Shown here: positions 9,671 through 58,502 of the stretch, piece by piece
Position numbering within the stretch: the stretch's first letter is position 1
Layout: every line of letters starts with the position of its first letter
Virus record (IMG/VR): IMGVR_UViG_3300045988_120470
Coordinates: 31,443-95,442 of that record
Strand: one strand, 5' to 3'
DNA: 64,000 nucleotides
Source of the DNA: a virus
Program-made: the position numbers and the translations under genes
Notes under the pieces: generated by a model
Seen by the model: the letters and a program-made list of their open reading frames with translations, nothing else
Told to the model about the DNA's origin: nothing
Databases searched by the model: none

Positions 9671-9734
9671 TAGTAAAATCTGTGTTTTGTGTTGTGTTAT
9701 CCTGAATACAACCTTTTTACCTGGTTGCTAAATG

Positions 9735-9808
9735 TTGTGGAGGAAGGACTCGAACCTTCGACCTCTTGGTTATGAGCCAAGTGAGCTACCATCTGCTACC
9801 ACTCCGCT
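9735..9808 (-). tRNA. tRNA with CAT anticodon (Met or Ile2-type), structurally irregular
   Basis: Anticodon arm CTTGG-CTCATAA-CCAAG, T arm GAAGG-TTCGAGT-CCTTC and a D loop with A14/G18G19/A21. There are also A.A at 1:72, C.A at 3:70, one extra T in the D stem and no encoded CCA. Confidence 0.6.
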
Positions 9809-9856: not shown

Positions 9857-9886
9857 AAAAAAAACCGCTATCCTCACGGACAACGG
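9857..9886 (-). terminator. rho-independent terminator
   Basis: Minus strand: CCGTTGTCC-GTGA-GGATAGCGG, a 9-bp stem with 2 G.U pairs and a GNRA loop, followed by T8. It lies downstream of 9914..10405. Confidence 0.65.
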
Positions 9887-14219: not shown

Positions 14220-14275
14220 GCTCTATCCAGTTGAGCTACATTTCTCTTGAAAGAAAAGATAGGATTCGAACCTAT
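14220..14275 (-). ncRNA. tRNA-like fragments (T arm + acceptor hairpin + D arm), not a canonical tRNA
   Basis: Minus strand: ATAGG-TTCGAAT-CCTAT, then CTTTTCT, a 6-nt loop, AGAAATG (6/7 complementary), TA, then GCTC-AACTGGATA-GAGC. No anticodon arm could be folded on either side. Confidence 0.35.
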
Positions 14276-14411
14276 AACCTCGTGAGACACGTTTCGAAAA
14301 ACGCATGATTCACTAAAAGAAAACTCCGTATGCTATCCGTGTGAGAGTCAGTTTCACGGTGCAAAACCTTCAGTCTGACCTTACCCACCTCGTATTATTT
14401 ATATTTTTTGT

Positions 14412-30585: not shown

Positions 30586-31698
30586 ATGGAGTTAAACATT
30601 ACGCTTGCCGAAGCATTGGAGCGAGCTTCGACAGGACTGCGAAAGAAGATGCTTCACTCGGTAGAGCTGCTGCAAAAAGCAGAGAAGATAGCTCTGAACT
30701 ATGATGCCGAGAACGGATATTACTTGGCGTTTAGTGGAGGCAAGGACTCTCAGGCTCTTTTCCACATGACTCATTTGGCTGGGGTTAAATTTCGTGGTCA
30801 CATGAATCTCTCGAGCGTAGATCCGCCCGAAGTCATTCGCTTCGTAAAAAGGAACTATCCCGAAGTGGAACTGATAAAGCCAAAGAAGAGCATATTCCAG
30901 ATTGCTATTAAAAATCAAATTTTACCCACTATGCGTGTGCGTTGGTGCTGTGCTGAATACAAGGAAACGTCAGGTGCGGGCAAGGTTACGCTAATCGGCA
31001 TTCGCAAGGCAGAGAGCACACGTCGAGCCAAGCGAAATGAAGTGGAAATAAACAACCATAAGTTTAGTGGCAATCTGGACGGTCTGGACGAATACCGACA
31101 GGAACAGAAGGCTAAACGTGCTCGCCGTAAATCTAAGGAGCAAGGTGTGAACATCACTAACGCTGATGAAGAACAGACGTTAGGCTGCATCCACGGCAAA
31201 GAGAGCCTGCTGATTTCGCCTATTATCTATTGGACGGAAAAGGAAGTCTGGGAGTTTCTCAACGACGTAGTGAGGGTTCCGCATTGCTCGCTCTACGATG
31301 AGGGCTGGCATCGCATAGGTTGCATCGGCTGCCCAATGAGTTCGCATAAACAAAAGATGATAGAAAACGCTCGTTATCCGCATGTAAAACGAAACTGGAT
31401 TAAGGCTATTAAAGCCATTCGAGAGGGGGGTATTCAAAAGAGAATATATCTGGTGGAACATCCGCAAGAACTGGAATCCTCTCAGAAACGTCAGAGGATT
31501 GCTCAGGACGCAGGCGGCTACATCAAACATCCAGACCCAGGACACTGGATGGGGGGGGAAATACGAGGCGCAGCAATGCCAACATTCCGAATCTGCAAAC
31601 AATGGATGCAGACAAACTGCAACTGGGAGACAAAAAACACGGGAGTAGGGTTCTCGCAGTACCAGGGTTTTCATCCAGCTCCTCTTCTGACCGCTTGA
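30586..31698 (+). CDS. PAPS-reductase-family PP-loop protein (DndC/IbrA-like), probably frame-broken at a G8 tract
   Basis: ...YYLAFSGGKDSQALFHM... (PP-loop SGGKDS) and ...MRVRWCCAEYKE... are family hallmarks. After the G8 run at 31551-31558 the sequence turns implausible, while another frame continues sensibly to 31838. Confidence 0.8.
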   Translation: MELNITLAEALERASTGLRKKMLHSVELLQKAEKIALNYDAENGYYLAFSGGKDSQALFHMTHLAGVKFRGHMNLSSVDPPEVIRFVKRNYPEVELIKPKKSIFQIAIKNQILPTMRVRWCCAEYKETSGAGKVTLIGIRKAESTRRAKRNEVEINNHKFSGNLDGLDEYRQEQKAKRARRKSKEQGVNITNADEEQTLGCIHGKESLLISPIIYWTEKEVWEFLNDVVRVPHCSLYDEGWHRIGCIGCPMSSHKQKMIENARYPHVKRNWIKAIKAIREGGIQKRIYLVEHPQELESSQKRQRIAQDAGGYIKHPDPGHWMGGEIRGAAMPTFRICKQWMQTNCNWETKNTGVGFSQYQGFHPAPLLTA

Positions 31699-46360: not shown

Positions 46361-46366
46361 CAAAAA

Positions 46367-46398
46367 GCATCCGCCTATCTTCGCAAACTGGCGGATGC
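46367..46398 (-). terminator. rho-independent terminator (possibly bidirectional)
   Basis: GCATCCGCC-N14-GGCGGATGC. On the minus strand it is preceded by T9 and followed by TTTTTG. It lies between convergent genes. Confidence 0.6.
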
Positions 46399-51567: not shown

Positions 51568-53070
51568 TTATTCTTTCCTCAGTCCGCCGATCATCGGCAT
51601 TAAGAACACCGCAGCACCCGCAAACGCCAACATCACGACTCCCGTTGACACAGCCATCAGCACCGCCAGTACACCTGCCAACACTTTCTTTACAGTCAGT
51701 CTCTTGTTCTCCCTCACCGTAGTGTCTTCACGCTCCTCTCGCAGCGTCGGCTCGCCTACCTGCGGATAGTTACGCTTGCGCTTCGGCTTCGGCTGGGGTA
51801 TAGGTGCCGGCTCCAGACTCTGATTAATCTCAGGCTCTATAACGCAAGGCTCTACTTCCGGCTCCTGACTCTGATAAATCTCAGGCTCTTCTTCCACTTT
51901 GCCATCAACGCACACGATAACATCGCCGTGCAAACTGACCTCAATCTTGCAACCTGCTACAAGACCCTTCTGGTTGAAAGTCTTCTCGCTTCCGCAGTTG
52001 GCATGGGAAAAACGGTGTCCGTTCATTTCCACTTCGTCAAAGTCGGCTACGAATGTTATCTTGCCAGTCTTCTCACCTATCGTGGTATGATGGCCGCGAT
52101 ATGTGGTGACGGCCTTGAATACGGGGCGAAACTTAAAAGCGCAGTTATACTTTGCGTCATGGTCGGTATGACCGATGCGGTCATAATAGTCGTAGTTGTC
52201 GAACTTGAATACAAGTCCGTCGGTAGGGTAGGGCAGCGACTCACGCTCCACCTCGGCAGAGCACACGATGTTCTCGATGTCCTGCTCCAACTCGGCATCC
52301 GTCTTTTCAAGATTGAGAGCCGACACAAAGCCCGAAGTCTTAAAACCGTTACGCTCCAAGGCTTGCATCGCCGGCATGTGTCTTATCACGCCATCCATAA
52401 TAAGGCGGAAGGGATGAAACTCCAGACGCTTGCACTCGTCCTTTACAGCCACTTTCTTAGACATGATACCGTTGCTCGTAGAACGGGGCGATTTGCCAGC
52501 CTTGCCATAACAGGCAAACTCCTCAAGCGAGATGATCACCTCACCTCTCACCTCCACACGGTCGTACTGGCTCCATACGTCCACCTGAGCAGGAACACCC
52601 TGCACATGCTTTATATGGTCCAGGCAGTCGTTGCCAAACAACTCTTTGCCGTGTCCGTAGGTGGCTTCTGCAAACACTCCCTGACGATATACCAGGCTCA
52701 CGGTCTCACCGTCAAACTTCCACTCTACAGCTACCTCCGTGCCCTTGCTGCTGATGTTGGCAGCACGCTGTTGCGCTCTCAGGTATTTCACCACCGCCTT
52801 GGCATCATGCAGCTTCTTCATGGAGAGGCAAGCCGTGCGACGTGCCACCGTGCGCTTGCCGTTGCCGTTCTCGCTGTAGCACTGCTGGGTAGGTGAGTCG
52901 GACAATATCTCGTCCGCGTGCTGCTCTTCATACTCCTGCAAGGCAAAGTACATAGCGTCGTATTCCTCGTCGCTGACGGTCGGATTGTTCAGTCCGAAAT
53001 ATCTATAGTCGTGCATCTTCACTACGTCTACCAGCGCACGATAATCGTTGAAATTCTCAATCTTAGTCAT
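51568..53070 (-). CDS. NAD-dependent DNA ligase-like protein (adenylation + OB only) with repeat linker and C-terminal TM segments
   Basis: The N-terminus resembles LigA domain Ia (...YRYFGLNNPTVSDEEYDAMYFALQEYEE...) and KxDG is present (...VEWKFDGETV...). No Zn-finger, HhH or BRCT was seen. The C-terminus has an EPE(I/V)...Q repeat and VLAGVLAVLMAVSTGVVMLAFAGAAVFLMPMI. Confidence 0.7.
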   Translation of the reverse strand: MTKIENFNDYRALVDVVKMHDYRYFGLNNPTVSDEEYDAMYFALQEYEEQHADEILSDSPTQQCYSENGNGKRTVARRTACLSMKKLHDAKAVVKYLRAQQRAANISSKGTEVAVEWKFDGETVSLVYRQGVFAEATYGHGKELFGNDCLDHIKHVQGVPAQVDVWSQYDRVEVRGEVIISLEEFACYGKAGKSPRSTSNGIMSKKVAVKDECKRLEFHPFRLIMDGVIRHMPAMQALERNGFKTSGFVSALNLEKTDAELEQDIENIVCSAEVERESLPYPTDGLVFKFDNYDYYDRIGHTDHDAKYNCAFKFRPVFKAVTTYRGHHTTIGEKTGKITFVADFDEVEMNGHRFSHANCGSEKTFNQKGLVAGCKIEVSLHGDVIVCVDGKVEEEPEIYQSQEPEVEPCVIEPEINQSLEPAPIPQPKPKRKRNYPQVGEPTLREEREDTTVRENKRLTVKKVLAGVLAVLMAVSTGVVMLAFAGAAVFLMPMIGGLRKE

Positions 53071-54528: not shown

Positions 54529-55932
54529 TTATTTTCTATTCATAACGTAGATGATCACACGATCGGTATAATATGACAAATCGAACATCTTGCCATACTT
54601 GCGAAGGTCAGCAAGGGAAATCTCATTCACTTCGTGACCGACTTCCTTCTCCACAAGGTTCTTGAAGTTCTGGGTACCTGGGCGACAGTTACCAGCGTTC
54701 AGAGAGTCGTCGAAGGTGAACATATACTTCGCCAGTTCTTCCATGCGCTGCTTCCTCTCCGCTGCCTTCTGCGCACGCTTCGCGCGAGCGTTAAGAAGGT
54801 CGAAAGCCTGCTGCTTGCGCTTCTCTGCGTTGATGCGCTTAGCCTCCTTGAGCGTCTTCGCCTCGATGTGCTCACCTCTCACGAGATAGCCCTTCTTTGT
54901 GTCGATGTCGGCAATAGCGCGTCCCTGCTCTACCCATTCACACGCCATGCCGTCGCGCTTGAACTCGCCGCGGTAGAAAGTAATCAGACCGCCTACAAGT
55001 CGGATGCTGTAGCCCTTCTTTATTGTCAGACGGAAGCCGCGTTTAATCATCGGAAAACTACAACTATGGCTATAACCTTCGAAATCCTTCTCCTCACAAC
55101 AGCCGATAGCGTTGAAGTCGCCTACTGCGCAAGTGCGGAACATGACGTGCCCGCCAGTCTTGATGTGACGCTCGATGAAGGTCTCATAGTCATAATTATA
55201 GGCTTCGCCATTCTCATAGAAGATATGACTATTCACATATTCTATATCGCGTACACGCTTCTTCTCGGCTGCTTTCTCGGCTCTCGCAGCCGCTTTTTCT
55301 GCCGCTGCCTTATCCTTAGCATCCTGTTCCAAACGTGCCAGATACTCGTCCCCATTGGCAAAGCCTTCTTTGCTCAGGAACTTGGCAAATGCCTTCTCAG
55401 CAAAGCCGAGTGTACGGCGGACAGCCTTGTCTCGCTTCTGCTCGTCCTTCTCATAAGCACCGAGCATGATGTAATCAGAAAGCAGCTCCACCTCGTTCTT
55501 GCCCTTCAGGTAGTCAGAACGGAGCATCCATGTGGCACAAGCCTCTGACACGCTCGCCAATACCTGTGCGTTAATGCAGCACTTCATGCCATTCTTACGC
55601 TTGTAAGCCTTCTCTACGTCCTTGGCGAACGTAGGGGCAATTATATAAAATCTATTGGAATTGAAGTCCACAGTCGACTCTTCATTTACGTAATGAGAGC
55701 CCCAACCGTCTGCATAATAATCCGTGTAAACGTCCATCTGATAGCTGTCAGCAAGTGGCAGAGAGAAGAATTGTGAGGCATCCCAGCAGTTATATTTCTC
55801 CTTATAACCGAAACGTACTACCGCTACCTCACGACCGCGAGTCTTGTCTGCTTTGTCAAAACGGAATGATCCGAGGAATACTGTAGCGTTCGCCTTAACA
55901 TTGTTCTTGAACTCCTTAAATGTAATAGTCAT
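54529..55932 (-). CDS. hypothetical protein
   Basis: 467 aa with two Lys/Ala/Glu coiled-coil stretches; no motif recognised. Confidence 0.55.
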   Translation of the reverse strand: MTITFKEFKNNVKANATVFLGSFRFDKADKTRGREVAVVRFGYKEKYNCWDASQFFSLPLADSYQMDVYTDYYADGWGSHYVNEESTVDFNSNRFYIIAPTFAKDVEKAYKRKNGMKCCINAQVLASVSEACATWMLRSDYLKGKNEVELLSDYIMLGAYEKDEQKRDKAVRRTLGFAEKAFAKFLSKEGFANGDEYLARLEQDAKDKAAAEKAAARAEKAAEKKRVRDIEYVNSHIFYENGEAYNYDYETFIERHIKTGGHVMFRTCAVGDFNAIGCCEEKDFEGYSHSCSFPMIKRGFRLTIKKGYSIRLVGGLITFYRGEFKRDGMACEWVEQGRAIADIDTKKGYLVRGEHIEAKTLKEAKRINAEKRKQQAFDLLNARAKRAQKAAERKQRMEELAKYMFTFDDSLNAGNCRPGTQNFKNLVEKEVGHEVNEISLADLRKYGKMFDLSYYTDRVIIYVMNRK

Positions 55933-56015
55933 ATTGTGTGCTCATACCCTTGAGACTTAATTAGGCTATCTGGTGCAGCCGATTAATAAAAAATGTTTGT
56001 TTCTTTTATCTGATG

Positions 56016-56023
56016 CAAAGGTA
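56016..56023 (-). promoter_or_regulatory. Bacteroidota -7 box (TACCTTTG)
   Basis: 84 nt upstream of the ATG at 55932. Confidence 0.4.
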
Positions 56024-56166
56024 GCAATAATTTTTTAAACTACCAAATAAATGACGCATAAATTACACATTAATGCGTATTTTATTATTTTCTTTGCGTT
56101 TTTCCGCCAGGCTCCACGGGGGGCACGGGTTTTTCGTGTCTTCTGTGTCGTCTGTCACCTCTCCTT

Positions 56167-56254
56167 GTCGCCCATCCAGGAGCTCGAACCTGGTGCCATG
56201 CCTTGCCGTGGTGGGCGTTGCGCTGCTCGCTATCCTCACGGACTGCCAGCAGCC
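56167..56254 (-). ncRNA. hairpin + tRNA-like element, copy B
   Basis: Minus strand: long hairpin GCTGCTGG..TCC-GTGA-GGA..CGAGCAGC, then CGCCCA / hairpin / CCAGG-TTCGAGCT-CCTGG / TGGGCG. It is collinear with copy C, with compensatory changes in the stems. Confidence 0.45.
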
Positions 56255-56282
56255 TAACAAAATACTCTGATTATGATTATAT

Positions 56283-56334
56283 GCTCCCGCCGATGGAGTC
56301 GAACCTTCGCAAAGGGCCGTGCCGGGCGCGGGAT
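56283..56334 (-). ncRNA. degenerate tRNA-like minihelix, copy A
   Basis: TCCCGC ... GAAGG-TTCGACT-CCATC ... GCGGGA. It shares the CACGGC core with copies B and C but lacks the 5' hairpin. Confidence 0.3.
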
Positions 56335-56343
56335 GGGGTAGGG

Positions 56344-56577
56344 CTACTGTTTGTAAACTTCAATTGTCTCTATCGCCTCACAGTCTATATAACTGTTGCA
56401 AGCCTTGCCCTGCACTGAGATAACCTCCGTGTCGATGTTGTAGCCGATGATGTCGTCCTCGCCGCTGTCGCCGTTCGCGAAACTGAAGCACACGTCATTG
56501 TGGTGCGTCTTGATCACTCCATGCTGAAGGTTGCTCTGTGCAGCCATCAATATCGTTTTAACTGTTGCAAATTTCAT
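56344..56577 (-). CDS. hypothetical protein
   Basis: 77-aa ORF preceded by the palindromic motif. Confidence 0.45.
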   Translation of the reverse strand: MKFATVKTILMAAQSNLQHGVIKTHHNDVCFSFANGDSGEDDIIGYNIDTEVISVQGKACNSYIDCEAIETIEVYKQ

Positions 56578-56634
56578 TGTTTTCTATTGTTTTTAGAGGG
56601 TTGTATAATATAGGGTGCTTTCTTGTGAGACGCA

Positions 56635-56814
56635 TCAGAATGTCTGACGGAGGCAAGAGAACAGCGCATCAAGTCCTAAGTTATACTCTATGCGCTCTTT
56701 GTTGCCGAACTCGTCAGGATCAGGAGGCGTGAGGGTGATGTACTCGATGATGCGTGTCATTGCCTCACGGAGGCTTGCTTTATCCATGTCTATTGTTATA
56801 ACTGTCTTTTCCAT
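56635..56814 (-). CDS. hypothetical protein
   Basis: 59 aa from the ATG at 56814 (MEKTVITIDMDK...). The longer track ORF adds an implausible leader. Confidence 0.4.
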   Translation of the reverse strand: MEKTVITIDMDKASLREAMTRIIEYITLTPPDPDEFGNKERIEYNLGLDALFSCLRQTF

Positions 56815-56961
56815 TATTTTGTTGTTTTTATTTGTTCGTAAATGCTCCTCCCAACAAAGGGAGGAAGAAAACGGCTGCACCGAATAAAGAGAACAGCACT
56901 ATGCACATACAGACTACTGTCAACGCTGCAACGATATAGGTTAAAACCTTCTTCATTCGCT

Positions 56962-57591
56962 CTATTTTATGAAATGATTTCCCTCCAGCTTCGCCATCGT
57001 CTCAAGATAGACCATTTGCGAGGTGTAATAACAGAGGTTTTCGTATGTAACAATCCAGTTGTTATACTCTTTTTTTATGCGGTCACTCCCATTCGTGAGG
57101 TCGAAGAGTCGCTTCCAACGCTGATAAATCTCGTCTGTGTAGTCTCTCAACGGTCTGAGAGATGTTTCCAAGTCGCAAGGCTTAGAATATACAGGTGCCG
57201 GATGAACAATCTCACCATTTGCAACCTTGTGGAATACCTGACGGTAGACCTCGAACACGGAGCGAACCTTGCGGGCGATGAAGAACTCAAGGCAGGGGAC
57301 GGAGAGCATGTAAATCTCTATCGGGCGACCATTTCTGACTTTTCCCCCGTTTTGGGCTAAAACCTCGGAGTTTTCGCCATTTTGGGCTAAAACTTGATAA
57401 TCAACGTTTTGCAGAAACAAATCGTTAGATTTTAAAGCTCTTACGGCTTTTTCTTTGGCCGAATACACCAACGGCCACACATCATCCAGATTAACCGGAA
57501 ATTCCTCACTGTCTTTCGACATTCTTAATACTTCTTCAAAGTACGCCTTAATCTCTTGGCCGGTACTTTGTTTTGTTAATTGTAGAATCAT
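56962..57591 (-). CDS. antirepressor/KilA-C-like DNA-binding protein (tentative)
   Basis: 209 aa. ...EFPVNLDDVWPLVYSAKEKAVRALK... resembles phage Ant/KilAC-type proteins. There is an internal duplication, VLAQNG..(x2). Confidence 0.35.
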   Translation of the reverse strand: MILQLTKQSTGQEIKAYFEEVLRMSKDSEEFPVNLDDVWPLVYSAKEKAVRALKSNDLFLQNVDYQVLAQNGENSEVLAQNGGKVRNGRPIEIYMLSVPCLEFFIARKVRSVFEVYRQVFHKVANGEIVHPAPVYSKPCDLETSLRPLRDYTDEIYQRWKRLFDLTNGSDRIKKEYNNWIVTYENLCYYTSQMVYLETMAKLEGNHFIK

Positions 57592-57648
57592 ATTGTTTTG
57601 ATTAAAAAATTGAAATCCTCAATATTTTACACACGCTATAAAGAGGCG

Positions 57649-57930
57649 TTACCACTTGATGCACACTACCATTGCCACGAACATTACCACCACGCCGAAG
57701 CCGAGGTATTGCCAACCCGTCATTATCACGGGGTCCTCCTTGTCGGTGAAGTTGTGGCGGTTGTTGAGCCACTGGCACACGCTCAATACTGCACACTGTG
57801 CCAGTCCGAAGGCTTTCGCCGTGCACTGCAAGACATACACAAGGCAAAGCACCAGGCATCTGCAAAAAGATCTTGCTACGTCCAATGCGCTCACATTGGG
57901 CGCGGTCGGTGTTGTTACTATTGCTTTCAT
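57649..57930 (-). CDS. small membrane protein, paralog of 61584..61889
   Basis: 93 aa. It shares MK..T.TP..., ...DP(V/I)..TGWQ(Y/F).G... and a C-terminal TM helix with the 101-aa ORF at 61.6 kb. Confidence 0.55.
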   Translation of the reverse strand: MKAIVTTPTAPNVSALDVARSFCRCLVLCLVYVLQCTAKAFGLAQCAVLSVCQWLNNRHNFTDKEDPVIMTGWQYLGFGVVVMFVAMVVCIKW

Positions 57931-57961
57931 ATCTTTCTAATTTTATAGGGTTTATAACATA

Positions 57962-58046
57962 GTCGCCCGACGAGGAGTCGAACCTCGTCCACGTGTCAGC
58001 CGTGCGGGCGGTGTACCGTGGCTATCCTCACGGATTACCACAGCCG
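57962..58046 (-). ncRNA. hairpin + tRNA-like element, copy C (best preserved)
   Basis: GCTGTGG-TA-ATCC-GTGA-GGAT-AG-CCACGGT hairpin, then a 6-bp CGCCCG/CGGGCG helix enclosing CACG-GCTGACA-CGTG and ACGAGG-TTCGACT-CCTCGT (canonical T loop). G.U pairs fit only the minus strand. Confidence 0.5.
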
Positions 58047-58229
58047 AAAACAAATAAATACGATTCTATAAAGTATTAAAATGTCATTTCTTGATTTTCA
58101 ATTTTTCCGTGATGTTTTATGTATTCTATAATATAGGTTTCTTGTTTCGGATGGAGAAGGGCGGCGGCTTATCGTGCCGCCCAGCCTCCTTTATGCTGCT
58201 TTGCTCTCGTTGTTCGGGATAGAGGTATT

Positions 58230-58502
58230 CTAAGATATTTTGTATTTGCCTATCTTAACAGCATAACCGATTTTGGTCAGCTTCGTTCGTCCGAAGGCCA
58301 ACACGTCGCTGTACCAAGATGTATATGTAAGAAATATGCTGTTATCCTTCTGGGTGCAGCCGAGTATATCACAACTGACGCGATGCCCCCGTTGCAAATG
58401 CTTTATATAGGCTTCCTTCGCCTCTCTTAATGTTCTATGACATTCGCCGCCAAATTTATACGGTTCATATATGTCAAACTTATAATAATCTATTCTTACC
58501 AT
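58230..58502 (-). CDS. hypothetical protein
   Basis: 90-aa ORF. Confidence 0.45.
   Translation of the reverse strand: MVRIDYYKFDIYEPYKFGGECHRTLREAKEAYIKHLQRGHRVSCDILGCTQKDNSIFLTYTSWYSDVLAFGRTKLTKIGYAVKIGKYKIS

What the first reader, a model, noticed from the sequence alone, without database searches (positions are those of the whole stretch)
56167..58046. Small family of hairpin + tRNA-like RNA elements in intergenic gaps
Two ~85-nt elements (56167-56254 and 57962-58046, minus strand) are collinear.
- Each has a long hairpin whose tip is the invariant (A/G)TCC-GTGA-GGAT (GNRA loop).
- A 6-bp helix (CGCCCG/CGGGCG or CGCCCA/TGGGCG) follows. It encloses a small hairpin and a T-arm with a GGTTCGA(N)TCC loop, an acceptor/T minihelix mimic.
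- The outer stems differ in sequence but keep pairing (GCTGCT/AGCAGC versus GCTGTGG/CCACGGT).
- The G.U pairs fit only the minus strand.
- A shorter degenerate copy sits at 56283-56334.

None of them folds as a cloverleaf: there is no D arm, and the 7-nt loop GCTGACA lacks U33. The same TCCGTGAGGATAG tip caps the terminator just upstream of the CAT tRNA at 9.86 kb. I found five GGTTCGA-type T-loops in the window, all minus-strand and intergenic, and only one belongs to a near-canonical tRNA. The elements could be RNase P/Z processing signals, decayed tRNAs or an undescribed sRNA class.
Basis: seen in the sequence. Interest (0 to 1): 0.65.

Follow-up and report, generated by a model that had tools for sequence, protein, structure and literature searches.

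The report
Anticodon-less mini-tRNAs with leader hairpin
This gut-phage genome carries three small RNA elements from a large, uncatalogued family that keeps only the top half of a tRNA, usually behind a conserved hairpin, most likely so that the host's tRNA-trimming enzymes cut the phage transcript at these points.

Summary
Elements C (57958-58046) and B (56163-56255), both on the minus strand, share one architecture:
- a 5' hairpin P1 with a GNRA tip;
- a 4-nt linker;
- an acceptor-like stem, a short GG-containing D-loop substitute and a canonical T-arm;
- a 3' tail reading A-C-N-A.

The "degenerate copy" (A, 56283-56333) is a third tRNA-like element without P1. ARAGORN and Rfam 15 call none of them.

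They are not chance and not decay. Pattern scans and two covariance models recovered 142 distinct relatives in uncultivated gut viral contigs and MAG contigs. In these, 92% of predicted pairs form, against 61% in shuffles and 37-46% with slid partners.

The retained parts are the ones tRNA end-processing enzymes read: a 12-layer acceptor/T helix, the T-loop, the elbow GG, and A73 with an invariant C74. Genuine tRNA genes in the same loci show the same trailer. One relative has P1 in front of a real tRNA-Met.

Best reading (inferred, no transcript data): a tRNA-derived cassette cut by RNase P and the tRNA 3'-end pathway. This punctuates a phage early operon and releases a mini-tRNA. A trans-acting decoy role is not excluded. 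Why the P1 tip is conserved, also on plain terminators, remains unexplained.

The parts
57958..58046 (-). Element C, a full unit of P1 + linker + tRNA-like domain + tail. It lies 29 nt upstream of the ATG of the 93-aa ORF.
   Evidence: R1 102.9 bits; R2 74.9 bits; MFE fold; downstream ORF offset.
58015..58044 (-). P1 of C: 8-bp lower stem, an A*A mismatch, 4-bp tip stem AUCC/GGAU and a GUGA loop.
   Evidence: fold; tip motif at 58022-58035; helix 1 is 94% paired across the family.
58005..58010 (-). Acceptor-like 5' strand of C (CGCCCG). The predicted RNase P cut lies between 58011 and 58010. The 4-nt linker ACAC is at 58011-58014.
   Evidence: Helix 2 is 98% paired and all 6 pairs show changes on both sides; linker is 4 nt in 112 of 142. 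The cleavage site is inferred.
57988..58004 (-). D-region / P3 of C (CACGGCUGACACGUGGA). GG lies 3 nt after the acceptor strand. A subfamily-specific small hairpin may form.
   Evidence: GG present in 141 of 142 D-regions; P3 only 71% paired.
57971..57987 (-). T-arm of C: CGAGG / UUCGACU / CCUCG.
   Evidence: Helix 4 is 97.6% paired; loop T-T-C-G-A is nearly invariant.
57960..57969 (-). Acceptor 3' strand CGGGCG (57964-57969) plus tail A-C-U-A (57960-57963). The predicted 3' cut is at or after C57962.
   Evidence: Tail columns A 126/142, C 142/142, N, A 116/142; same trailer in genuine tRNA genes. The cut is inferred.
58047..58066 (-). T-rich box (..CGTATTTATTTGTTTTC) directly upstream of P1 of C. 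It resembles the Bacteroidota -7 promoter element TAnnTTTG.
   Evidence: Conserved at 4-7 nt from P1 in related loci, with exact TAnnTTTG in several. Promoter function is inferred, not shown.
56163..56255 (-). Element B, a full unit: P1 56222-56253, linker GCAA 56218-56221, acceptor CGCCCA 56212-56217 / UGGGCG 56169-56174, T-arm 56176-56193 with an 8-nt loop, tail ACAA 56165-56168.
   Evidence: R2 69.4 bits; identical copy in L022.
56283..56333 (-). Element A, a tRNA-like domain without P1. Acceptor UCCCGC 56328-56333 / GCGGGA 56285-56290; T-arm CGAAGG-UUCGACU-CCAUCG 56291-56309; tail G-C 56283-56284. It starts 10 nt after the stop codon of ORF 56344-56577.
   Evidence: R2 18.7 bits, E 0.005; conserved in 26 aligned loci; 4 T-arm pairs with compensatory changes; invariant C after the discriminator.
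56256..56282 (-). Conserved A-B spacer (ATATAATCATAATCAGAGTATTTTGTTA) with a promoter-like box before P1 of B.
   Evidence: Near-identical spacer in more than 20 loci whose flanking helices vary.
56045..56078 (-). Terminator-like hairpin + T-run (ACGCAU..AUGCGU CAUUUAUUU) that closes the unit after B.
   Evidence: Read; it lies about 15 nt after B in relatives such as L010 and L024. One search aligned a terminator model segment here.
56344..57930 (-). The ORFs bracketed by C and A on the same strand: 93 aa, 209 aa, 42 aa, 81 aa and 77 aa. No family assignment.
   Evidence: no PHROG or Pfam hits.
9857..9886 (-). Stand-alone P1-type hairpin (tip GUCC-GUGA-GGAU-AG) followed by a T-run. It is an intrinsic-terminator-like site 57 nt upstream of tRNA-Met.
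   Evidence: R2 joins it to the tRNA T-arm at 31.6 bits.
46362..46398 (-). Second stand-alone P1-type hairpin + T-run. Its tip GUUU-GCGA-AGAU-AG is a compensated variant of the same motif.

Best explanation
B, C and the truncated A belong to a phage RNA family that descends from tRNA genes. The family has lost the anticodon arm and D-stem. It is kept under selection for the parts of a tRNA that the end-maturation machinery reads.

Shown:
- The structure is conserved and covaries.
- The acceptor stem plus T-stem form a 12-layer stack.
- The T-loop sequence is canonical.
- A GG sits 3-4 nt after the acceptor strand, where it could partner the T-loop.
- The discriminator A and an invariant C74 are followed by a non-CCA trailer, exactly as in genuine tRNA genes of the same genomes.
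- A stable hairpin (P1) ends 4 nt before the acceptor.

Inferred:
- Transcription of C and B starts at a Bacteroidota-type promoter box just upstream of P1.
- Host RNase P cuts at the acceptor 5' end: between 58011 and 58010 in C, 56218 and 56217 in B, and 56334 and 56333 in A.
- The tRNA 3' pathway cuts at or after C74, and the CCA-adding enzyme completes the end.
- In the window these cuts bracket a five-ORF early operon (C ... ORFs ... A, then B, then a terminator).
- They would separate the leader hairpin, a mini-tRNA of about 55 nt, and an mRNA with a short A/U-rich leader.

On this reading the element is a tRNA-style punctuation and processing cassette. I cannot decide whether the released mini-tRNA also acts in trans. 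The sequence conservation of the P1 tip is not explained by this model.
For: Family and structure:
- 147 hits (142 distinct) at E < 1e-4 in 813 kb of related loci.
- 92.3% of pair cells form, against 60.6% in shuffles and 37-46% with slid partners. The covariation score is 0.748 against 0.208. Helices P1, P2 and P4 are 94%, 98% and 97.6% paired.

tRNA processing determinants retained:
- T-loop columns T-T-C-G-A and the two G-C pairs beneath it are essentially invariant.
- GG is present in 141 of 142 D-regions.
- A seventh acceptor pair is present in many subfamilies, giving 7 + 5 layers.
- The tail is A (126/142), C (142/142), N, A (116/142).

Same trailer in real tRNA genes of the same loci:
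- C74 is encoded in 40 of 41 (genome loci) and 11 of 11 (viral loci).
- Full CCA is encoded in only 8 of 41 and 0 of 11.
- Position 76 is mostly A.

tRNA origin and shared gene architecture:
- L130 has P1 + 4 nt + a genuine tRNA-Met scoring 49.3 bits on Rfam tRNA.
- L174 keeps a D-arm.
- Genuine phage tRNA-Gln genes also have a leader hairpin ending 3-5 nt before +1.

Context:
- Elements lie on the coding strand.
- 77 of 142 have an ORF of at least 50 aa starting within 120 nt downstream with no terminator in between.
- A sits 10 nt after a stop codon in the window and holds the same position just upstream of the B-type copy in 26 aligned relatives.
- Promoter-like boxes sit at a fixed short distance before P1.

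Established knowledge (not tested here): bacterial RNase P recognises the acceptor/T stack, the T-loop/D-loop elbow and the 3' RCC. An anticodon arm is dispensable.
Against: - There are no transcript, end-mapping or enzymatic data, so every cleavage is inferred.
- A stable hairpin 4 nt from the cleavage site could hinder RNase P rather than help it.
- B and C start the acceptor with C1-G72, whereas RNase P generally prefers G+1 (own knowledge).
- Tandem arrays of 4-6 units, some apparently with their own promoter-like boxes and T-runs (L078, L127, L084), look more like selection for RNA dosage than for a cis signal.
- Phage genomes are densely packed, so closeness to a downstream ORF carries little weight.
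- The strict conservation of the P1 tip is not needed for processing. This covers the R*A mismatch, the G.U wobble and the GYGA loop, and the tip's reuse on 19 distinct plain terminators.
Confidence: 0.5

Rival explanations
1. Trans-acting decoy or competitor. The abundant anticodon-less mini-tRNA, with or without P1, binds a factor that reads the tRNA top half or 3' end. Candidates are a host tRNA-end-targeting toxin or defence nuclease, RNase P, the CCA-adding enzyme or SmpB. Binding would protect or redirect the host tRNA pool during infection.
For: - Multi-copy tandem arrays suggest a dosage effect: L127 at least 6 units, L078 5, L084 4, L130 4.
- B is followed by a terminator, like a stand-alone sRNA gene.
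- The D-stem-less GG loop resembles the tRNA-like domain of tmRNA (the comparison is from own knowledge).
- Phages are known to counter tRNA-targeting immunity with tRNAs (abstracts listed: PMC11555353, 10.1101/2023.03.15.532788).
Against: - Most known antiphage tRNases cut anticodon loops, which these RNAs lack.
- No conserved partner protein lies within 5 kb across subfamilies.
- Acceptor sequences vary freely, so no single aminoacyl-tRNA synthetase identity set is kept, and there is no G3.U70.
- Only 26 of 142 units have a terminator-like site within 110 nt.
Confidence: 0.22
2. P1 is the functional core. It would be a GNRA hairpin recognised by a phage or host protein, like lambda boxB/N or a stability factor. 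That protein would act both at promoter-proximal leaders and at P1-capped terminators to control read-through or RNA stability. The tRNA-like part would only release or present P1.
For: - The tip motif is conserved with compensatory variants: GUCC..GGAU, GUUC..GAAU, GUCU..AGAU, GUUU..AAAU. A selected R*A mismatch and a G.U wobble accompany it.
- The same tip caps 19 distinct hairpin + T-run terminators in the viral loci and 2 in the window.
- P1 sits directly after promoter-like boxes.
Against: - No candidate binding protein co-occurs across subfamilies.
- Other family members and genuine tRNA genes use unrelated leader hairpins in the same position (L025:980, L015/L032 A-type, tRNA-Gln). The position matters more generally than the tip sequence.
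- The tRNA-like part is the more strongly constrained half.
Confidence: 0.1
3. Neutral relics: decaying tRNA pseudogenes, or DNA-level att-site copies of tRNA 3' halves, with no RNA function.
For: - The window also holds clear tRNA debris at 14246-14357.
- Its tRNA-Met has a poor acceptor stem.
- Phages often carry tRNA 3' fragments at attachment sites (own knowledge).
Against: - Compensatory changes occur in all three main helices across 142 distinct sequences.
- Both acceptor strands are kept and covary, which a DNA att copy does not need.
- G.U pairs are strand-specific.
- The C74 and GG positions are invariant.
Confidence: 0.04
4. They are real decoding tRNAs of unusual shape that the detectors miss.
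For: ARAGORN forces odd 86-95-nt 'tRNA-Lys' or 'tRNA-Ala' calls on a few relatives.
Against: - Most members have no anticodon arm. The region between acceptor and T-arm is only 9-22 nt in the majority and varies in length and sequence.
- The P3 loop lacks U33 and is not conserved.
- Rfam tRNA gives no hit on B or C even at E <= 10.
Confidence: 0.01

Closest known systems
tRNA (Rfam RF00005) and phage tRNA genes
   Same: - 12-layer acceptor/T helix.
- GGTTCGANTCC T-arm.
- Discriminator A, and an encoded C74 followed by a non-CCA trailer.
- A leader hairpin ending a few nt before +1, as in genuine tRNA-Gln and tRNA-Met genes of related phages.
   Different: - No anticodon arm and no D-stem.
- Not called by ARAGORN; below the Rfam threshold, with no hit at E <= 10 for B and C.
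- Cannot decode.
tRNA-like domain of tmRNA
   Same: Acceptor stem + T-arm joined by a short D-loop substitute with GG and no D-stem. There is no anticodon arm (tmRNA features from own knowledge).
   Different: - No mRNA-like region, pseudoknots or tag ORF.
- No G3.U70.
- ARAGORN finds no tmRNA.
- Carries a 5' hairpin instead of the long connecting helix.
mascRNA / MALAT1 and MEN-beta tRNA-like elements (Rfam RF01684)
   Same: Works alike in the proposed model: a non-decoding tRNA-like fold embedded in a longer transcript. RNase P would cut 5' of it just after a stable structure, and the small RNA is released. This was the only Rfam model to touch C's minihelix.
   Different: - Eukaryotic, with a full though small cloverleaf.
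- Scores 17.6 bits against a gathering score of 42.5 (E = 3.4), so C is not a member.
Bacterial Y RNAs (YrlA)
   Same: Non-coding RNAs with a tRNA-mimicking module, sometimes phage-encoded (PMC4201824, title and abstract).
   Different: - In YrlA the 5' and 3' ends form the Ro-binding stem and the acceptor-like stem is closed (own knowledge). Here the acceptor is open with a free 3' tail.
- No Rfam hit.
- No Ro60 (rsr) gene was recognised among the few neighbouring ORFs scanned.
RNase P-processed phage small RNAs (P1/P7 C4, P4 CI, T4 species 1 and 2 RNAs)
   Same: Phage-encoded stable RNAs matured by host tRNA-processing enzymes. C4 lies in the leader of the operon it belongs to (own knowledge, not tested).
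   Different: - Those RNAs lack a canonical T-loop.
- C4 and CI act by antisense pairing, and I found no indication of that here.
- No Rfam C4 hit.

Membership tests
tRNA | Cloverleaf detectable by a tRNA finder | tested here: not met
   ARAGORN calls only 9734-9808 in the window. It does not call the elements in 29 related loci, apart from one odd 93-nt call.
tRNA | Reaches the Rfam RF00005 gathering score | tested here: not met
   No tRNA hit on B or C at gathering score or at E <= 10. A few relatives with long D-regions do reach it: L130 49.3 bits, L174 48.5, L078 38.0.
tRNA | Anticodon arm with a 7-nt loop and U33 | tested here: not met
   The region between acceptor and T-arm is mostly 9-22 nt and varies in length and sequence. 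C's loop GCUGACA has C at position 33.
tRNA | T-arm with T54-psi55-C56-R57-A58 and G53-C61 | tested here: met
   Columns T140, T140, C142, G138, A142 out of 142; G-C 142/142 and 140/142.
tRNA | Acceptor stem stacked on the T-stem (12 layers), with a discriminator and a 3' end that can be completed to CCA | tested here: met
   6 bp + junction nucleotide + 5 bp. The seventh pair forms in many subfamilies. The tail is A-C-N-A, as in genuine tRNA genes of the same loci.
tmRNA | Tag-peptide reading frame and pseudoknots between the halves of the tRNA-like domain | tested here: not met
   ARAGORN finds no tmRNA. The two acceptor strands are only 45-50 nt apart.
tmRNA | G3.U70 alanine identity pair | tested here: not met
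   The third acceptor pair is CG 78, GC 45, UA 6, AU 3, GU 3.
mascRNA-menRNA (RF01684) | Reaches the Rfam gathering score | tested here: not met
   17.6 bits against 42.5, E = 3.4.
YrlA / Y RNA; C4 antisense RNA | Any Rfam match | tested here: not met
   No hit in the window or in 14 related loci.
RNase P / tRNA 3'-end substrate (functional class) | Actual cleavage at acceptor +1 and after position 73/74, followed by CCA addition | not testable with these tools
   Only the sequence determinants could be checked.
The P1-plus-tRNA-like family defined here (models R1, R2) | GYGA-capped P1 with R*A mismatch and G.U wobble, short linker, 6-7-bp acceptor, GG D-loop substitute, T-arm, A-C-N-A tail | tested here: met
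   C 74.9 bits and B 69.4 bits with R2. A meets only the tRNA-like half (18.7 bits).

The most novel reading that the evidence does not exclude
The mini-tRNAs would be a new class of phage counter-measure or host-takeover RNA. They would be abundant anticodon-less tRNA top halves, possibly CCA-tailed, that occupy a host factor reading the tRNA elbow or 3' end. That factor could be an acceptor-end-modifying toxin or defence enzyme, RNase P, the CCA-adding enzyme or SmpB. The conserved P1 tip would be the binding site of a still unknown factor that also acts on the phage's P1-capped terminators. Together these would form one RNA-based regulatory system spread across Bacteroidota and Firmicutes gut phages.
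Probability: 0.2. Interest if true: 0.85.

Novelty: new variant of a known kind. Interest (0 to 1): 0.65.

Why it matters
- **A new RNA family.** If the family is real, as the covariation strongly suggests, gut phages carry a widespread structured RNA that no catalogue lists and that tRNA finders skip. Phage "tRNA" counts and intergenic annotation are therefore incomplete.
- **Minimal tRNA shape.** The family shows which parts of a tRNA survive when decoding is no longer needed: the top half, the elbow partner and A73-C74.
- **Bacteroidota tRNA genes.** It also exposes a general feature of these genes. C74 is encoded and the rest of CCA is not, and a leader hairpin abuts the RNase P site.
- **Transcript processing.** If the processing model holds, it is a bacterial-virus counterpart of tRNA punctuation in mitochondria and of MALAT1/mascRNA 3'-end formation. 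It could also serve as a portable cleavage cassette for Bacteroides engineering.
- **Phage-host conflict.** If the decoy model holds, it adds an RNA player to the conflict over tRNAs.

Tried and rejected
- **Ordinary tRNA, tmRNA or any Rfam family.** Rejected.
- **Similar annotated phages.** blastn of C and of a low-GC pair against INPHARED found nothing. The 2.4-kb region matched only two unannotated fragments over 3-6% of its length.
- **Degenerate pattern in bacterial genomes.** Most hits were chance, chiefly Flavobacteriia tRNA-Gly (GCGAAAATAGCTCAG...). Only about 10 true members were found, all on short MAG contigs.
- **MAFFT + RNAalifold on raw sequences.** This recovered only the P1 tip and T-arm because indels misaligned P2 and P3. 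It was replaced by covariance-model alignment.
- **Conserved partner protein.** All-against-all comparison of ORFs within 5 kb gave only module-level neighbours: DUF3127 and an unassigned 145-aa protein. The top two 'clusters' were spurious antisense ORFs.
- **Antisense (C4-like) role.** I considered this but did not search systematically for targets. The variable loops are short or absent in many subfamilies.
- **SRP RNA domain IV, sarcin-ricin loop and Y-RNA stem resemblance of the P1 tip.** These were compared from memory only. The tip stem is Watson-Crick where those motifs are non-canonical, so I dropped them.
- **Fold-back docking of the GNRA loop on the T-stem.** P1 arm length and linker length are inversely related (Spearman -0.51). 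This partly follows from how the two were measured, so it is not evidence.
- **More copies in the window.** An unfiltered search found none.
- **Literature.** Four searches found nothing relevant.
Full report
**1. What is in the window**

Read on the minus strand, element C (57958-58046) has these parts in order:
- a 30-nt hairpin P1 (58015-58044) whose tip is AUCC-GUGA-GGAU followed by AG;
- a 4-nt linker, ACAC;
- a 6-bp stem CGCCCG/CGGGCG that encloses a small hairpin and a T-arm (CGAGG-UUCGACU-CCUCG);
- a tail, ACUA.

Element B (56163-56255) is collinear with C. It has a different but still paired lower P1 stem, acceptor CGCCCA/UGGGCG, a compensated T-stem (CCAGG/CCUGG) and an 8-nt T-loop.

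C adopts exactly this fold as its minimum-energy structure: -43.7 kcal/mol, z = -3.7, with none of 200 shuffles as stable. B gives the same P1 and acceptor stem at -40.9 kcal/mol, z = -2.5. The opposite strand folds worse; for C it gives -33.0 kcal/mol, z = -1.2.

Detectors do not call these elements:
- ARAGORN finds one tRNA in the whole window, tRNA-Met at 9734-9808.
- Rfam at gathering score finds only that tRNA.
- A permissive Rfam search of 55900-58300 gives no tRNA hit. It gives only a 17.6-bit match of C's minihelix to mascRNA, far below that family's threshold of 42.5.

Motif counts against chance:
- The tip motif GTYYGYGARRATAG (up to 1 mismatch) occurs four times, all on the minus strand, against 0.54 expected.
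- GGTTCGANNCC occurs four times against 0.31 expected.

**2. It is a large family, not a pair**

An exact scan of viral contigs for TCCGTGAGGATAG-N(20-50)-GGTTCGA returned 35 loci. A version degenerate in the tip returned 110 stretches.

I built two covariance models. R1 came from nine near-identical C-type copies with a hand-drawn structure. R2 came from 114 hits of R1. Searched over 83 sources (813 kb), R2 found 147 matches at E < 1e-4, of which 142 are distinct.

On that alignment:

| Measure | Observed | Shuffled partners | Partners slid 1-3 columns |
|---|---|---|---|
| Pair cells forming a standard pair | 92.3% | 60.6% | 37-46% |
| Covariation score | 0.748 | 0.208 | 0.08-0.12 |

Of the 27 pairs, 25 show changes on both sides. 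P1, the acceptor stem and the T-stem are 94%, 98% and 97.6% paired. The small inner hairpin P3 is only 71% paired and is specific to some subfamilies.

The alignment was fitted to the model, so these figures lean towards the structure. The gap to both controls is too large for that bias to explain.

Members occur in several settings:
- IMG/VR contigs of 30-200 kb;
- Prevotella, Tannerellaceae and Bacteroidaceae MAG contigs;
- contigs binned as Acutalibacteraceae, Agathobaculum, [Ruminococcus] lactaris and 'Azospirillum sp. CAG:239'.

The window itself is phage. It encodes a head maturation protease, a primase-like protein, a sliding clamp and an NAD-dependent ligase. No deposited phage genome matches the elements by blastn. 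Four literature searches found no description.

**3. What is conserved**

In P1:
- The loop is G-Y-G-A.
- The tip stem is C-G, Y-R, U-A and then a G.U wobble, kept in 126 of 142.
- Below the tip stem lies a mismatch. Its 3' base is A in 130 of 142. Its 5' base is G, A or C, and U in only 4.
- Next comes a Y-G pair.
- Tip variants are compensated: GUCC/GGAU, GUUC/GAAU, GUCU/AGAU, GUUU/AAAU.

Elsewhere in the element:
- The linker is 4 nt in 112 of 142.
- The acceptor stem is 6 bp. In many subfamilies a seventh pair forms between the next nucleotide and the junction nucleotide. The acceptor plus T-stem therefore form 12 layers, as in tRNA.
- Between the acceptor and the T-arm lie mostly 9-22 nt of variable sequence. 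They contain GG in 141 of 142 cases, usually 3-4 nt after the acceptor strand. This is a D-loop substitute without a D-stem.
- The T-loop is T-T-C-G-A-N-T over two invariant G-C pairs.
- After the acceptor 3' strand the tail reads A (126/142), C (142/142), any base, A (116/142).

**4. The tail matches that of real tRNA genes here**

I ran ARAGORN on all fetched loci and located positions 73-77 from the T-loop.

| Feature | Genome loci, mostly Bacteroidota (41 distinct tRNA genes) | Viral loci (11 distinct) |
|---|---|---|
| C74 encoded | 40 | 11 |
| Full CCA encoded | 8 | 0 |
| Position 76 is A | 22 | 9 |

Position 75 is mostly T or A. The window's own tRNA-Met ends ...CTCCACA-A-C-A-T.

The elements thus carry the same trailer as bona fide tRNA genes of these hosts and phages. 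The sample of tRNA genes is a convenience sample: it consists of whatever lay in the loci fetched for other reasons. The agreement is nonetheless striking.

**5. Origin from tRNA genes**

- Rfam's tRNA model hits a few family members that have long D-regions.
- L130:5105-5213 is a P1-type hairpin, 4 nt, then a genuine tRNA-Met (CAT) with a C1.A72 mismatch and tail A-C-U-A.
- L174 keeps a 7-bp acceptor and a canonical D-arm but has no anticodon arm.
- Genuine phage tRNA-Gln genes in related contigs also have a leader hairpin ending 3-5 nt before +1. That hairpin is unrelated in sequence.

'Hairpin, short linker, tRNA' is therefore a general gene layout in these phages. The family is a version of it in which the tRNA has been reduced to its top half.

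**6. The third copy and the operon**

Copy A (56283-56333) begins 10 nt after the stop codon of ORF 56344-56577. It has these features:
- a 6-bp acceptor (UCCCGC/GCGGGA) stacked directly on a 6-bp T-arm;
- a GG-containing connector;
- a tail N-C whose C is invariant;
- no P1.

It is conserved upstream of B-type copies in 26 aligned loci, and four T-arm pairs change on both sides. In L015 and L032 another hairpin precedes it.

The 27-nt A-B spacer is nearly invariant, while the helices on either side vary. It ends in a T-rich box. C is preceded by a similar box (CGTATTTATTTGTTTTC) at the end of a 180-nt A/T-rich gap. Across Bacteroidota-type loci this box sits 4-7 nt before P1. In several loci it is an exact TAnnTTTG, the Bacteroidota -7 element (the consensus is from my own knowledge). 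Low-GC and Firmicutes-binned members have -10-like boxes at a similar distance.

I therefore infer, but cannot show, that B and C are transcribed from their own promoters starting at P1.

C is followed after 29 nt by the first of five small ORFs. A, then B, then a terminator-like hairpin (56045-56078) close the block.

**7. P1-type hairpins elsewhere**

The same tip caps two hairpins followed by T-runs in the window. One is at 9857-9886 upstream of tRNA-Met. The other is at 46362-46398 and carries the compensated variant GUUU-GCGA-AGAU-AG.

In the viral loci the tip occurs in 110 distinct tRNA-like units, 19 distinct hairpin + T-run sites and 5 other sites, three of which are units with variant T-loops. 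P1 is thus a module used both as a leader hairpin and as a terminator hairpin. I have no tested explanation for the conservation of its tip.

**8. Mechanism**

What survives in these RNAs is what bacterial RNase P reads: the acceptor/T stack, the T-loop/D-loop elbow, and the discriminator with C74. The tRNA 3'-end and CCA-adding enzymes need the same parts (established knowledge; not tested here). What has been lost, the anticodon arm and D-stem, is what those enzymes do not need.

Together with the shared trailer and the shared gene layout, this makes processing by the tRNA maturation machinery the best-supported mechanism. The predicted cuts are:

| Element | RNase P cut between | 3' cut at or after |
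|---|---|---|
| C | 58011 and 58010 | C57962 |
| B | 56218 and 56217 | C56167 |
| A | 56334 and 56333 | C56283 |

In the window this would excise the five-ORF mRNA from its leader hairpin and its 3' flank, and release mini-tRNAs.

I give this 0.5. The weak points are:
- there are no transcript data;
- a hairpin only 4 nt from the cleavage site may hinder RNase P;
- the first acceptor pair in B and C is C1-G72;
- the P1 tip conservation is unexplained;
- arrays of 4-6 units in some contigs look like selection for RNA dosage.

That last point keeps a trans-acting decoy role alive (0.22). A P1-centred protein-binding role gets 0.10. Neutral decay or DNA att copies get 0.04, given the covariation. 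Unusual decoding tRNAs get 0.01.

**9. Comparison with known systems**

- The elements work like tRNA-like processing signals such as mascRNA downstream of MALAT1.
- They resemble the tRNA-like domain of tmRNA in lacking a D-stem.
- They fail every membership test I could run for tRNA, tmRNA, mascRNA, YrlA and C4.

I file them as a new variant of a known kind: tRNA-derived, non-decoding tRNA-like RNAs.

**10. Verdict**

| Item | Verdict |
|---|---|
| Observation | Confirmed |
| Family | Real, widespread and uncatalogued |
| Mechanism | Inferred |
| Function | Open |
| Interest | 0.65 |

Noticed in passing
window 14246-14357 (-): tRNA debris. A T-arm (ATAGG-TTCGAAT-CCTAT) with acceptor 3' strand CTTTTCT is followed 6 nt later by AGAAATG-TA-GCTC-AACTGGATA-GAGC, which is an acceptor 5' strand plus a canonical D-arm. 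The two acceptor strands pair at 6 of 7 positions, so this could be a permuted or rearranged tRNA. R2 scores it only 12.6 bits, and ARAGORN and Rfam call nothing.
   Followed up: partly
window 9734-9808 (-): The only called tRNA, Met (CAT, Rfam 40.1 bits), has two acceptor mismatches: A1*A72 and C3*A70. Its trailer is A-C-A-T. It may be an initiator-like or partly degenerate tRNA.
   Followed up: partly
window 9857-9886 and 46362-46398 (-); 19 distinct sites in viral loci: Intrinsic-terminator-like hairpins in these phages share a specific cap: an R*A mismatch, a G.U wobble and a GYGA loop, followed by AUAG. Compensated variants occur. This suggests a factor or a folding property that selects the tip independently of the tRNA-like part.
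   Followed up: partly
Loci L040-L151 (Bacteroidota genomes), viral loci and the window: Genuine tRNA genes encode the discriminator plus C74 in 51 of 52 cases but the full CCA in only 8 of 52. Position 76 is often A. I do not know whether this partial-CCA signature of Bacteroidota tRNA genes has been described.
   Followed up: partly
L130:5105-5213 (-): A P1-type leader hairpin lies 4 nt upstream of a genuine tRNA-Met (CAT) with a C1.A72 mismatch, the hallmark of bacterial initiator tRNA.
   Followed up: yes
L156, L169, L180, L195, L175 and others, upstream of tRNA-Gln (TTG): Phage tRNA-Gln genes carry their own conserved leader hairpin (for example CCUCAC-AGCG-GUGGGG) ending 3-5 nt before tRNA +1. 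The hairpin-linker-tRNA layout is therefore general in these phages.
   Followed up: partly
L169, L184, L196, L200, L208, L215, L217, L223; L012 and L021: ARAGORN run with defaults makes forced 86-95-nt 'tRNA-Lys (TTT)' or 'tRNA-Ala (AGC)' calls that swallow P1. These are likely false tRNA annotations that could already sit in public phage records.
   Followed up: no
window 56049-56168 (-): A weak Rfam match to Bacteroides sRNA BTnc005 (22.2 bits against 174.8, E = 0.03). It is driven by the terminator hairpin after B and is probably meaningless. The window carries about 70 extra nt between B and this terminator compared with relatives.
   Followed up: partly
window 30586-31698 (+) and 51568-53070 (-): A PAPS-reductase-like protein (PHROG 424) and an NAD-dependent DNA ligase are encoded in the phage. 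The former family includes DNA-modification enzymes.
   Followed up: no
window 57960-57952 (-): C's tail reads ACUAUGUUAUAA, which contains a three-codon frame AUG-UUA-UAA. The AUG is not conserved in relatives (ACTATA.., ACTACG..), so it is probably chance.
   Followed up: partly
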